From Octopus sinensis (taxonomy: Eukaryota), in assembly GCF_006345805.1 (NCBI RefSeq), contig NW_021827430.1, positions 1-10,396 of the forward strand: a DNA stretch of 10,396 bases, in the 5' to 3' direction. A program made the position numbers. Shown piece by piece: positions 9,459 to 10,396 of this stretch; the first letter of the stretch is position 1, and each line of letters starts with the position of its first letter.

Positions 9459-10396
9459 GTATATATATGTGTATATATATATTCATATATAATCAATATA
9501 GGGTGGCAAGGAAAATTTTGTAGAATTTTTTTGCCACCAGCGGCCCAGTGGGAAAAAATTAAATAGTCATAGACCATTTTTAAGTTCAACATTAACAATT
9601 AAGAAACGGCCATAATAGGCCATTCACCACTAGAAATAACAGCCAAAGCTTCTACCGCAAATAAAGATTAATTCCGTAAACAGGAGAAAATTAAAAAAAA
9701 TTTACCCTGTAATTTCTTGTACGGTATACCGTTTCATCCGCTGTTTAATGGTAAACTAACCTGATTAAATTAAATCAAGCCAATCTTCCATAAGCCTCGG
9801 ATTCTTCAGCAAGAAATAGCTCAAGTCGGAACAGATATTTACACAAGGCATACCCAATCTTGCCAAGGCAATATCTGACCTCCTAAAATTTTCAAATCGT
9901 CGCACTCGCGCCAAATTTATCGGCAGCAAATAAATATAGCCGTCGATTCCATTACGGAATTAACCAAAAAATTCATAATTAATCAATATAGGGTGGCAAG
10001 GAAAATTTTGTAGAATTTTATTGCCACCAGCGGCCCAGTGGGAAAAAATTAAATAGTCATAGACCATTTTATATTCATATATATATATTCCTGCATATAT
10101 ATACATGTGTATATATATGTGCATATATATCTATTCATACATATATATGCATATATATACATGTAATATATATATATATAATATATATATTCATACATAT
10201 ACTCACACACACATATATATATTCATAAATATATGTATGCATATATATATATATATATATATGTATGTATATATTCATACATTTATTCACACACACACAC
10301 ACACCCACACATATCATCATCATCATCATCGTCATTTAGCGTTCGCTTTCCATGCTAGCATGGGTTGGACGGTTCAACTGGGGTCTGGGAAGCCAG

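What the first reader, a model, noticed from the sequence alone, without database searches (positions are those of the whole stretch)
9490..10070. Candidate retrozyme: ~490-bp ORF-less unit with 91-bp terminal redundancy inserted in (TA)n
Seen in sequence: the first 91 bp recur ~490 bp later with one mismatch, so the insert is ~1.2 units of a circularly permuted monomer. The hammerhead lies mid-insert rather than at an end, there are no TG...CA LTR ends, and both flanks are TA microsatellite. Established knowledge: animal non-LTR retrozymes are tandem non-coding units with a type I hammerhead that yield circular RNAs and are proposed to be mobilised by Penelope-like reverse transcriptases; Penelope-like elements also leave partial tandem pseudo-LTRs. 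Inference: this copy arose by reverse transcription going slightly more than once around a ~490-nt circular or multimeric RNA. It may represent a microsatellite-associated cephalopod retrozyme family. I cannot verify whether it is already catalogued.
Basis: partly seen in the sequence, partly recalled or inferred. Interest (0 to 1): 0.85.

Follow-up and report, generated by a model that had tools for sequence, protein, structure and literature searches.

The report
Hammerhead-ribozyme retroelement copy in octopus DNA
A roughly 580-base non-coding insert in an octopus-like genome carries a self-cleaving hammerhead ribozyme motif and looks like a copied-and-pasted "retrozyme", a known kind of animal mobile element, although whether it belongs to a repeated family could not be checked here.

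Summary
Positions 9490-9580 recur at 9980-10070 with 1 mismatch in 91, which gives 1.18 copies of a 490-bp unit. The unit is AT-rich (35.7% GC) and ORF-less: the longest frame is 64 aa, with no Pfam hit. It lies between TA-rich repeats.

A complete type I hammerhead lies on the MINUS strand at 9817..9712, with the cut between the complements of 9720 and 9719.
- It is the minimum-energy fold, z = -4.44.
- It is the only hit of a generic descriptor, with 0 strict and 2 relaxed hits in 300 shuffles.
- It aligns end to end with Rfam Hammerhead_1, but below the curated cut-off because of a 57-nt extension of helix II.

The neighbouring repeat translates to Octopus vulgaris hypothetical proteins.

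My best reading is a daughter copy of a retrozyme-like, probably Penelope-dependent, non-coding element. Target-primed reverse transcription in the TA repeat would have made it from a circular or concatemeric minus-sense RNA. A 14-bp candidate target duplication and primer-template microhomology fit this.

The copy holds only one ribozyme, so it cannot itself release circles. Copy number, circular RNA and any link to Penelope-like elements could not be tested, because no eukaryotic DNA collection was available. I rate it a new member of a known kind, of moderate interest.

The parts
9492..10070 (-). The insert: 1.18 head-to-tail copies of a 490-bp non-coding unit. The left edge is ambiguous between 9481 and 9492 because of homology with the flank.
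   Evidence: repeat, spacing 490; no ORF above 64 aa, no Pfam hit; GC 35.7%
9491..9980 (-). One full unit (490 bp). Read on the minus strand it is the 'full copy', lying downstream of the partial one.
   Evidence: Circular fold of the minus-sense monomer: -142.1 kcal/mol, z -5.55, 62% paired
9980..10070 (-). Partial second copy (91 bp). It equals 9490-9580 with 1 mismatch at 10020/9530. On the minus strand it is a 5'-truncated copy in front of the full unit, so it is pseudo-LTR-like.
9712..9817 (-). Type I hammerhead ribozyme motif.
- Helix I: 9817-9810 with 9719-9712 (8 bp)
- Core box CUGAAGA: 9809-9803
- Helix II base: 9802-9798 with 9740-9736 (5 bp, A-U at positions 10.1/11.1)
- GAA: 9735-9733
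- Helix III: 9732-9721 (4 bp plus tetraloop; a 12-nt palindrome)
- A17: 9720
- Predicted cut between the complements of 9720 and 9719
   Evidence: MFE gives the three-way junction, z -4.44, 0 of 200 shuffles as stable; only descriptor hit; Rfam RF00163, model 1-45 of 45, 21.4 bits, E 0.0034 for the 141 nt searched; forming helix I in the circle costs 1.8 kcal/mol
9741..9797 (-). 57-nt extension of helix II: a long imperfect hairpin beyond an internal loop. This is the reason the Rfam model scores below its cut-off.
9478..9491 (+). Left copy of the candidate 14-bp target-site duplication (TATATTCATATATA). Its last 11 nt match the unit's own sequence in front of the junction (9970-9980) at 9 of 11 positions, which I read as possible primer-template microhomology.
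10070..10083 (+). Right copy of the candidate 14-bp target-site duplication. Base 10070 is shared with the end of the unit.
   Evidence: Chance of a 13-14-nt match for random position pairs in these flanks is 1.2-1.4%.
9422..9477 (.). Left TA microsatellite, probably the tail of the SINE-like repeat at 8994-9420. This is the target tract.
10084..10274 (.). Right TA-rich complex repeat (period 28/56) that carries the recurring TATTCATA variant.

Best explanation
The insert is a retrotransposed and now inert daughter copy of a small non-coding element that carries a hammerhead ribozyme. That makes it a non-LTR retrozyme, or equally a non-autonomous passenger of Penelope-like elements, in an octopus genome. 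The functional RNA is the minus strand.

Proposed steps:
1. Inferred: a master locus with two or more units is transcribed. The hammerhead cuts each unit after the A at the complement of 9720. The 490-nt monomer is ligated into a circle, or some transcript stays concatemeric.
2. Inferred, with anatomical support: an endonuclease of the Penelope type nicks the TA-rich repeat. The plus-strand 3' end at about 9491 anneals to the RNA through 9 of 11 matching bases. Reverse transcription then runs 1.18 times round the template, crossing the intact ribozyme site once and the 9980/9981 point once, and stops at 10070.
3. Inferred: second-strand cleavage 14 bp away leaves the TATATTCATATATA duplication.

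Shown here: the 1.18-unit structure, the complete ribozyme motif and its near-optimal fold, the absence of coding capacity, the low GC, the TA target, the candidate duplication and the octopod source.

This copy holds one ribozyme, so its transcript would be cut once and could not give a circle.
For: - Repeat: 91 nt with 1 mismatch, spacing 490.
- Ribozyme: the MFE fold of 9830..9700 is the hammerhead three-way junction, z -4.44, with 0 of 200 shuffles as stable.
- Ribozyme: it is the single hit of a generic descriptor in both strands of the window. In 300 shuffled windows there were 2 hits at relaxed settings and 0 at strict settings.
- Ribozyme: full-length alignment to Rfam Hammerhead_1 with every core position matched.
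- In the 490-nt circle the complete ribozyme fold lies only 1.8 kcal/mol above the optimum. Cervera and de la Pena describe the same for most metazoan retrozyme circles (Discussion read).
- The minus-sense circle is strongly structured, z -5.55.
- GC is 35.7% and there is no ORF. Published retrozyme traits are tandem units of 150-450 bp, GC below 45-50%, and TSDs longer than 4 bp (passages). Consensus lengths of 51-972 bp and frequent monomeric offspring are reported in vertebrates (Results read).
- Helix III is stable (4 bp plus tetraloop), like the classical retrozyme hammerheads. The minimal Penelope variants lack helix III (passages).
- Penelope-like elements favour microsatellites including (TA)n. 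They leave a 5'-truncated copy ahead of a full one and give TSDs of variable length (passages).
- Read on the minus strand, the partial copy is exactly such a 5'-truncated copy, and the ribozyme is on that same strand.
- The candidate TSD of 14 nt has a 1.2-1.4% chance per random position pair. Without duplication, two TATTCATA motifs would sit about 13-14 nt apart, against 32-60 nt elsewhere in the tract.
- The ribozyme site is uninterrupted in the DNA copy, so the template was uncleaved or religated there.
- Octopod source: 6 of 6 significant hits of the neighbouring repeat's frame are Octopus vulgaris proteins.
Against: - Multi-copy status, the key property of a mobile family, is untested. 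Inside the window the unit occurs only here.
- Protein-level proxies found nothing real.
- Rfam does not call the ribozyme at its curated score. The E-value of 0.0034 is for 141 nt only and would be about 0.25 if scaled to the whole window.
- The base pair that closes helix II on the core is A-U, not the usual G-C. That G-C is usual is my recollection, not a call. Together with the 57-nt helix II extension, this leaves catalytic activity open.
- No tertiary loop-loop contacts could be assessed.
- No RT or GIY-YIG remnant lies in the 10.4 kb.
- In cephalopods the (TA)n-preferring Naiad clade is described as long inactivated and lacks hammerheads. This insert looks young, with 1 of 91 mismatches, so the helper would have to be another clade.
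- The TSD lies in repetitive DNA, where matches are cheap.
- The 490-bp unit is above the 150-450 bp range given in 2020.
Confidence: 0.5

Rival explanations
1. It is a non-autonomous Penelope-type element copied from a linear RNA with fixed ends. The unit would run 9980 to 9491 on the minus strand. The 91-bp redundancy would be an ordinary pseudo-LTR made by the Penelope machinery, by template switching or partial tandem formation. No circular RNA would be involved, and the hammerhead would be carried along as in Penelope pseudo-LTRs.
For: Partial tandems (a 5'-truncated copy before a full copy) and head-to-tail insertions are reported for Penelope-like elements that lack hammerheads altogether. 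They are also reported for non-autonomous derivatives such as MRC1 of Chlamydomonas (passages). Microsatellite targets, (TA)n included, are typical of these elements. Retrozymes and pseudo-LTRs are phylogenetically intermingled in Xenopus (Results read). The orientation argument, with the partial copy upstream on the ribozyme strand, fits this model as well as it fits the circle model.
Against: The hammerhead has a stable helix III and an 8-bp helix I, unlike the minimal Penelope variants. It lies 229 nt from the putative 3' end and outside the duplicated 91 bp, whereas Penelope hammerheads are described as lying within pseudo-LTRs near the 3' end. One copy cannot show whether the ends are fixed.
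Confidence: 0.25
2. It is the remnant of a longer tandem (satellite-like) array of hammerhead units. The array would have been shortened by deletion in the unstable TA tract, or collapsed by the assembler, so this is not a discrete 1.18-unit insertion.
For: Hammerhead repeats were first described as satellite DNA, and multimers up to tens or hundreds of units are reported. TA microsatellites on both sides are recombination-prone. Assemblers often shorten tandem arrays, which is established knowledge rather than a call.
Against: The two overlapping ends differ at 1 to 3 positions, which a pure graph-collapse artefact would not give. The candidate 14-bp duplication directly abuts both ends. No degenerate unit fragments lie in the flanks.
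Confidence: 0.12
3. It is a single-copy locus. A local duplication of about 90 bp would happen to lie near a hammerhead-like fold that arose by chance or serves some other cis role, with no mobile element involved.
For: No second copy was seen anywhere. The Rfam score is below the curated cut-off.
Against: The descriptor expectation is 0.007 per window even at relaxed settings. The repeat spacing defines a unit that folds far better than shuffles on the ribozyme strand, z -5.55 to -6.42. The block is sharply bounded inside a microsatellite with a flanking duplication, which is the anatomy of an insertion.
Confidence: 0.08
4. It is a reverse-transcribed copy of an exogenous viroid-like or satellite circular RNA with a hammerhead in one polarity, captured by a host reverse transcriptase. 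It would not be a genome-resident retrozyme family.
For: The size (490 nt), strong self-pairing and single-polarity hammerhead resemble small infectious circles described in the reviews. The more-than-unit-length copy fits a circular template.
Against: The low GC, the type I topology and the metazoan-style accessible ribozyme are retrozyme traits. No ribozyme was found on the plus strand. Nothing ties it to a virus.
Confidence: 0.05

Closest known systems
Metazoan non-LTR retrozymes (Cervera and de la Pena 2020, PMC7229834; the mussel Mytilus galloprovincialis is the molluscan example)
   Same: - Type I hammerhead with a stable helix III
- Non-coding, low-GC unit of a few hundred bp in head-to-tail arrangement
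- No LTR, PBS or PPT features
- Strongly self-paired predicted circle in which the ribozyme can still form
- A flanking duplication longer than 4 bp
   Different: - Only 1.18 units with a single ribozyme, where the described elements are dimers to multimers
- The unit is 490 bp, against about 150-450 bp
- Helix II carries a 57-nt extension and closes on the core with A-U, so the Rfam model misses it at its cut-off
- Expression and circles were not examined
- The host is a cephalopod, for which my searches found no description
Monomeric derivatives of retrozymes in vertebrates (Li, Clavereau and Pollet, bioRxiv 10.64898/2026.07.22.740005)
   Same: They are dispersed copies with fewer than two units, read by those authors as offspring that cannot transpose further. 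Their consensus lengths run up to 972 bp, and they are related to Penelope pseudo-LTRs.
   Different: That study covered vertebrates, three insects and one coral, but no molluscs. Here no genome-wide picture is available.
Pseudo-LTR partial tandems of Penelope-like elements and their non-autonomous derivatives, for example MRC1 of Chlamydomonas (Craig et al. 2021, PMC8557442)
   Same: A 5'-truncated copy lies ahead of a full copy. The insertion is in a microsatellite, (TA)n included. TSD length is variable. A hammerhead lies on the sense strand in most clades.
   Different: There is no RT or GIY-YIG ORF here. The ribozyme is of the classical kind, not the minimal kind, and it lies outside the duplicated segment. 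The 30-40-bp tail described for these elements was not recognised.
Hammerhead-bearing satellite and SINE-like repeats (newt satellite 2, Schistosoma, cave cricket), as cited in PMC7229834
   Same: Type I hammerhead within a repeated non-coding unit. The palindromic helix III could also support dimeric ribozymes.
   Different: Those are long arrays or SINE-like dispersed copies with their own promoters. No array and no tRNA-like head are present here.

Membership tests
Hammerhead ribozyme, type I | Conserved core (CUGANGA, GAAA, a cleavage triplet ending in H) at a three-way junction with helix I open | tested here: met
   All core positions are present, the cleavage triplet is GUA, the MFE fold gives the junction, and the alignment to RF00163 covers the full model.
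Hammerhead ribozyme, type I | Score at or above Rfam's curated gathering threshold | tested here: not met
   0 hits at gathering. 21.4 bits against 34 when 141 nt are searched alone. The shortfall comes from the 57-nt insertion in the helix II loop.
Hammerhead ribozyme, type I | Self-cleavage activity | not testable with these tools
   This needs in-vitro transcription of the minus strand. The A-U pair at 10.1/11.1 and the long helix II leave activity open.
Non-LTR retrozyme | Tandem head-to-tail units, each with a type I hammerhead (two or more ribozymes, so that a monomer can be excised) | tested here: not met
   This locus has 1.18 units and one ribozyme. The test applies to this copy only. 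A master locus elsewhere was not searchable.
Non-LTR retrozyme | Non-coding, low GC (below 45-50%), unit of a few hundred bp, without LTR, PBS or PPT | tested here: met
   GC 35.7%. Longest frame 64 aa with no Pfam hit. 490 bp. No TG...CA ends.
Non-LTR retrozyme | Multi-copy, dispersed family in the genome | not testable with these tools
   No eukaryotic DNA collection was available. The window holds one copy. The prokaryote collection gave 0 matches. Protein proxies were negative.
Non-LTR retrozyme | Expressed as linear and circular RNA of unit length | not testable with these tools
   No transcriptome data. The predicted circle is stable (z -5.55) and the ribozyme fold is accessible at a cost of 1.8 kcal/mol.
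Non-LTR retrozyme | Target-site duplication longer than 4 bp, when present | tested here: inconclusive
   A 14-nt perfect repeat abuts both ends, but it lies in repetitive DNA (1.2-1.4% per random pair), and the motif recurs in the tract.
Penelope-like element (autonomous, or a truncated pseudo-LTR of one) | RT plus GIY-YIG ORF, or sequence continuity with one | tested here: not met
   0 of 77 frames of 55 aa or more reach any Pfam cut-off, and there is no RVT or GIY-YIG match. The two repeat copies are separated by 399 bp of non-coding sequence, not by an ORF.
Penelope-like element (autonomous, or a truncated pseudo-LTR of one) | Minimal hammerhead variant (helix III absent or 1 bp) within the pseudo-LTR | tested here: not met
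   Helix III has 4 bp plus a tetraloop, and the ribozyme lies outside the duplicated 91 bp. The feature is as described.
LTR retrozyme / TRIM-like LTR element | Terminal repeats with TG...CA ends, type III hammerhead in the LTR, PBS and PPT, 4-5-bp TSD | tested here: not met
   The repeats lack TG...CA ends. The hammerhead is type I and lies outside the repeats. No tRNA-complementary site was seen by eye next to either repeat. The candidate TSD is 14 bp.

The most novel reading that the evidence does not exclude
This copy would be a molecular fossil of the step that has never been observed for animal retrozymes. That step is target-primed reverse transcription of a circular, ribozyme-processed and religated 490-nt RNA at a nick in a TA repeat. 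It would start at a point fixed by primer-template microhomology rather than by the RNA's ends, and run more than once round. If the octopus genome holds many such copies with different start points, all next to matching microhomologies in (TA)n, the family would give direct sequence-level evidence for rolling-circle retrotransposition. It would also identify the helper as a (TA)n-targeting Penelope clade. It would further define a cephalopod hammerhead class, with a long helix II, that standard Rfam screens miss.
Probability: 0.25. Interest if true: 0.65.

Novelty: new member of a known kind. Interest (0 to 1): 0.4.

Why it matters
Retrozymes are thought to spread through small circular RNAs copied by borrowed reverse transcriptases. 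The copying and integration step, however, is only a model (Discussion of PMC7229834; Discussion of the 2026 preprint).

A young copy of more than unit length has readable junctions: a candidate 14-bp duplication and 9 of 11 bases of primer-template homology. It also has a defined target, a TA repeat. Such a copy is the kind of evidence that can test the model, provided many copies can be compared.

The case also shows that hammerheads with long helix II insertions fall below Rfam's threshold. Counts such as the 235 hammerhead_1 loci reported for the giant squid may therefore understate what cephalopod genomes hold.

In the library I searched, no paper describes retrozymes in cephalopods:
- retrozymes with octopus: 3 papers, none on the topic
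- retrozyme with squid: 0 papers
- hammerhead ribozyme with octopus: 5 papers, none on the topic

On its own, one inert copy of a known kind of element is of moderate interest.

Tried and rejected
- **Rfam at gathering score over the window:** 0 matches.
- **Rfam at E<=10 over 9400-10120:** 34 matches and no hammerhead. The top rows (mir-297, RUF21 and others) are artefacts of the TA/TG repeats.
- **Copies of the unit elsewhere in the window:** none beyond the second partial copy. The only other hits are 19-24-nt matches to a motif of an unrelated dispersed repeat.
- **Penelope coding remnants:** 0 of 77 frames.
- **tRNA-like heads:** 0.
- **Prokaryotic genome collection, with a 32-nt stretch of the ribozyme:** 0 matches. 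This collection holds no eukaryotes, so it says only that the sequence is not a bacterial contaminant.
- **Protein-level proxy for copy number, word-index search:** the 64-aa frame 9959..9768 found no candidate.
- **Protein-level proxy, exhaustive representative search:** 5 proteins at E<=0.001. All five are internally repetitive proteins, matched by repeated weak stretches of 27 bits or less each in the two I aligned (P0009, P0007). I take them as spurious sums. P0008, P0010 and P0011 were read but not aligned.
- **LTR/TRIM reading:** rejected, with no TG...CA ends, a type I ribozyme outside the repeats, and a 14-bp rather than 4-5-bp duplication.
- **Helitron reading:** considered by eye only. 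The ends do not show the 5' TC / 3' CTRR-plus-hairpin pattern as I recall it, so I did not pursue it.
- **Supplementary files:** For PMC8557442 only the file list was seen and the zip was not opened. bioRxiv supplements are closed. These files (species lists, consensus sequences including cephalopod Penelope-like elements) may bear on whether related cephalopod sequences are already catalogued.
- **Dfam/Repbase:** could not be consulted.

Full report
**Observation**

The window has no N. The repeat finder reports a two-copy direct repeat, 9481-9580 against 9971-10070, 100 nt at 97% identity, with start-to-start spacing of 490. Homology stops cleanly at 9581/10071. On the left it fades through two mismatches at 9488-9489, and seven further matches reach back to 9481.

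blastn of the unit against the window finds nothing else longer than 24 nt. The block is therefore 1.18 head-to-tail copies of a 490-bp unit.

The left flank is (TA)35 at 9422-9491. The right flank is a TA-rich period-28/56 tract at 10070-10274. The unit has 35.7% GC. Its longest stop-to-stop frame is 64 aa. None of the 77 frames of 55 aa or more in the whole window reaches a Pfam cut-off, and none matches a reverse transcriptase or a GIY-YIG nuclease.

**The ribozyme**

The ribozyme lies on the minus strand at 9817..9712.
- Helix I has 8 bp (9817-9810 with 9719-9712).
- The box CUGAAGA follows.
- Helix II starts with 5 bp (9802-9798 with 9740-9736) and continues beyond an internal loop as a long hairpin, 57 nt in all.
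- GAA follows.
- Helix III has 4 bp with a tetraloop (9732-9721, a 12-nt palindrome).
- A17 is at the complement of 9720, so the cut falls between the complements of 9720 and 9719.

Four results support it:
- The minimum-energy fold of 9830..9700 gives exactly this junction: -37.5 kcal/mol, z -4.44, with 0 of 200 shuffles as stable.
- A descriptor I wrote requires the core boxes plus three helices. It finds this site and no other on either strand. In 300 dinucleotide-preserving shuffles of the window it found 2 hits at relaxed settings (helices of at least 4, 3 and 2 bp) and 0 at strict settings.
- When only 9695-9835 are searched, Rfam's Hammerhead_1 model aligns over its whole length (1-45 of 45) at 21.4 bits, E 0.0034 for that stretch, with all core positions matched.
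- In the 490-nt circle, enforcing helix I costs only 1.8 kcal/mol.

Against it stand these points:
- Rfam gives no hit at gathering score, nor at E<=10 over 721 nt. The 21.4 bits are below the cut-off of 34, and the long insertion in helix II is what costs the score.
- The pair that closes helix II on the core is A-U. My recollection is that G-C is usual there. A weak base of helix II is reported for one axolotl retrozyme family.
- Activity is untested.

**Source and surroundings**

The frame through the adjoining repeat (9028-9420) gives 6 significant hits among 60 candidates. All are named as hypothetical proteins of Octopus vulgaris, at 57-94% identity.

That repeat (8994-9420) recurs at 10325-10394. 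The TA tract that received the insert looks like its tail. The rest of the window is a mosaic of an unrelated dispersed repeat and microsatellites.

**Junctions**

A perfect 14-nt repeat, TATATTCATATATA, lies at 9478-9491 and 10070-10083, abutting both ends of the insert. For random pairs of positions in these two TA-rich flanks, a 13- or 14-nt match occurs in 1.4% and 1.2% of the 11,229 pairs.

The octamer TATTCATA occurs 6 times in the window, all on the plus strand and all in this tract. One is on the left and five are on the right, spaced 32-60 nt apart. The expectation is 1.43, and 0 of 200 shuffles reach 6. If both flanking copies had been there before the insertion, they would lie only about 13-14 nt apart. 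A duplication is therefore the simpler reading, but it is not proven.

The last 11 nt of the left flank match the unit's own sequence ahead of the internal junction at 9 of 11 positions. This is either primer-template microhomology or the true left end of the insert with two substitutions.

**Orientation**

Three independent features point to the minus strand as the RNA sense:
- The ribozyme is on the minus strand.
- On that strand the 91-bp segment is a 5'-truncated copy lying upstream of a full copy. This is the arrangement described for Penelope-type insertions.
- The microhomology sits where a plus-strand DNA primer would anneal to a minus-sense RNA.

The DNA runs uninterrupted through the ribozyme's cleavage site, with helices I and III intact on either side. 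The template was therefore uncleaved or religated at that site.

**Mechanism**

I commit to the following reading. A minus-sense RNA that was circular or concatemeric was copied by target-primed reverse transcription from a nick in the TA tract. Copying ran for 1.18 turns and left a 14-bp duplication.

This matches the published model for non-LTR retrozymes: a primed circular RNA copied into tandem cDNA, with Penelope-like elements as the favoured helpers (Discussion of PMC7229834 read; review passages). It also matches the microsatellite bias, (TA)n included, and the variable duplications of Penelope-like elements (passages of PMC8557442).

The classical form of the ribozyme, with a stable helix III, sides with retrozymes and not with the minimal Penelope variants.

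The predicted circle is strongly structured on the ribozyme strand: -142.1 kcal/mol, z -5.55, 62% paired. The plus strand gives -104.4, z -4.94. The whole 590-nt insert gives z -6.42.

With one ribozyme, this copy can be cut once but cannot release a unit. It corresponds to the monomeric 'offspring' noted in vertebrates (Results of the 2026 preprint read).

**What remains open**

The shape alone does not require a circle. Penelope-like elements without hammerheads, and their non-autonomous derivatives, form the same partial tandems and head-to-tail insertions. A linear RNA with fixed ends therefore remains a serious rival.

A shortened or collapsed array, a single-copy oddity and an endogenised exogenous circle are less likely, for the reasons given under the rivals.

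The decisive datum is the number and permutation of copies in the genome. I could not obtain it, because the only DNA collections on hand hold prokaryotes, phages, plasmids and E. coli.
- The prokaryote scan gave 0 matches.
- Protein-level proxies were negative or spurious.

Supplementary files that may list cephalopod elements stayed unseen. For another paper only the file list was seen.

**Comparison and novelty**

The element works like a non-LTR retrozyme. It meets the compositional and ribozyme criteria for membership. As a locus it fails the criterion of two or more ribozymes in tandem. It is untested for copy number and circles.

It is not an autonomous Penelope-like element, nor a plain truncated pseudo-LTR. 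It has no ORF, the repeats are 399 bp apart, and the ribozyme is classical and lies outside the repeat.

Retrozymes are described in a mussel and many other invertebrate phyla. Type I hammerheads were merely counted in the giant squid genome. My searches found no description of cephalopod retrozymes.

I therefore file it as a new member of a known kind, with an unusual long-helix-II hammerhead, and give it moderate interest.

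Noticed in passing
window 1122-1925, 2523-3431, 5320-6164; inverted pieces 4421-4652: A dispersed repeat of about 0.85 kb occurs three times in direct orientation at 74-80% identity. There is also one inverted fragment that is 95.7% identical to 5727-5958. 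Each direct copy ends in a conserved motif that can form a 7-bp hairpin with a GAAA loop, followed by a short microsatellite. This is the look of a non-LTR or SINE 3' end.
   Followed up: partly
window 9630-9651 against 1902, 2853, 3026, 3407, 5765, 6012, 6140, 6762 (all + strand): A 22-nt stretch of the hammerhead unit, on the strand opposite the ribozyme, matches the terminal motif of that dispersed repeat at 18-19 of 22 positions. The best blastn E-value is 0.004 within the window. In the unit the hairpin's 5' arm is not conserved. It may be chance or a shared tail fragment.
   Followed up: partly
window 8994-9420 and 10325-10396: A GC-rich SINE-like repeat (60% GC at 9001-9400) has internal tandem duplications of 32-61 bp at 9151-9408. 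A second copy starts 255 bp after the insert. Its frame matches six Octopus vulgaris 'hypothetical predicted proteins', so those gene models are probably translated repeats.
   Followed up: partly
window 9480-10279: The octamer TATTCATA occurs six times, only on the + strand and only in the TA tract round the insert. The tract is therefore a degenerate minisatellite of about 56 bp and not a pure (TA)n. Seven of its eight bases also occur in the unit just ahead of the internal junction (9971-9977).
   Followed up: yes
window 9416-9492 and 10069-10120: Sub-threshold Rfam matches to mir-297, mir-3149, mir-1277, RUF21 and others all fall on TA/TG repeats. They are low-complexity artefacts.
   Followed up: yes
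window 9721-9732 (minus strand): Helix III of the hammerhead is a perfect 12-nt palindrome. Two ribozymes in a concatemer could therefore pair into a double hammerhead, as described for newt and Penelope ribozymes. This was not modelled.
   Followed up: no
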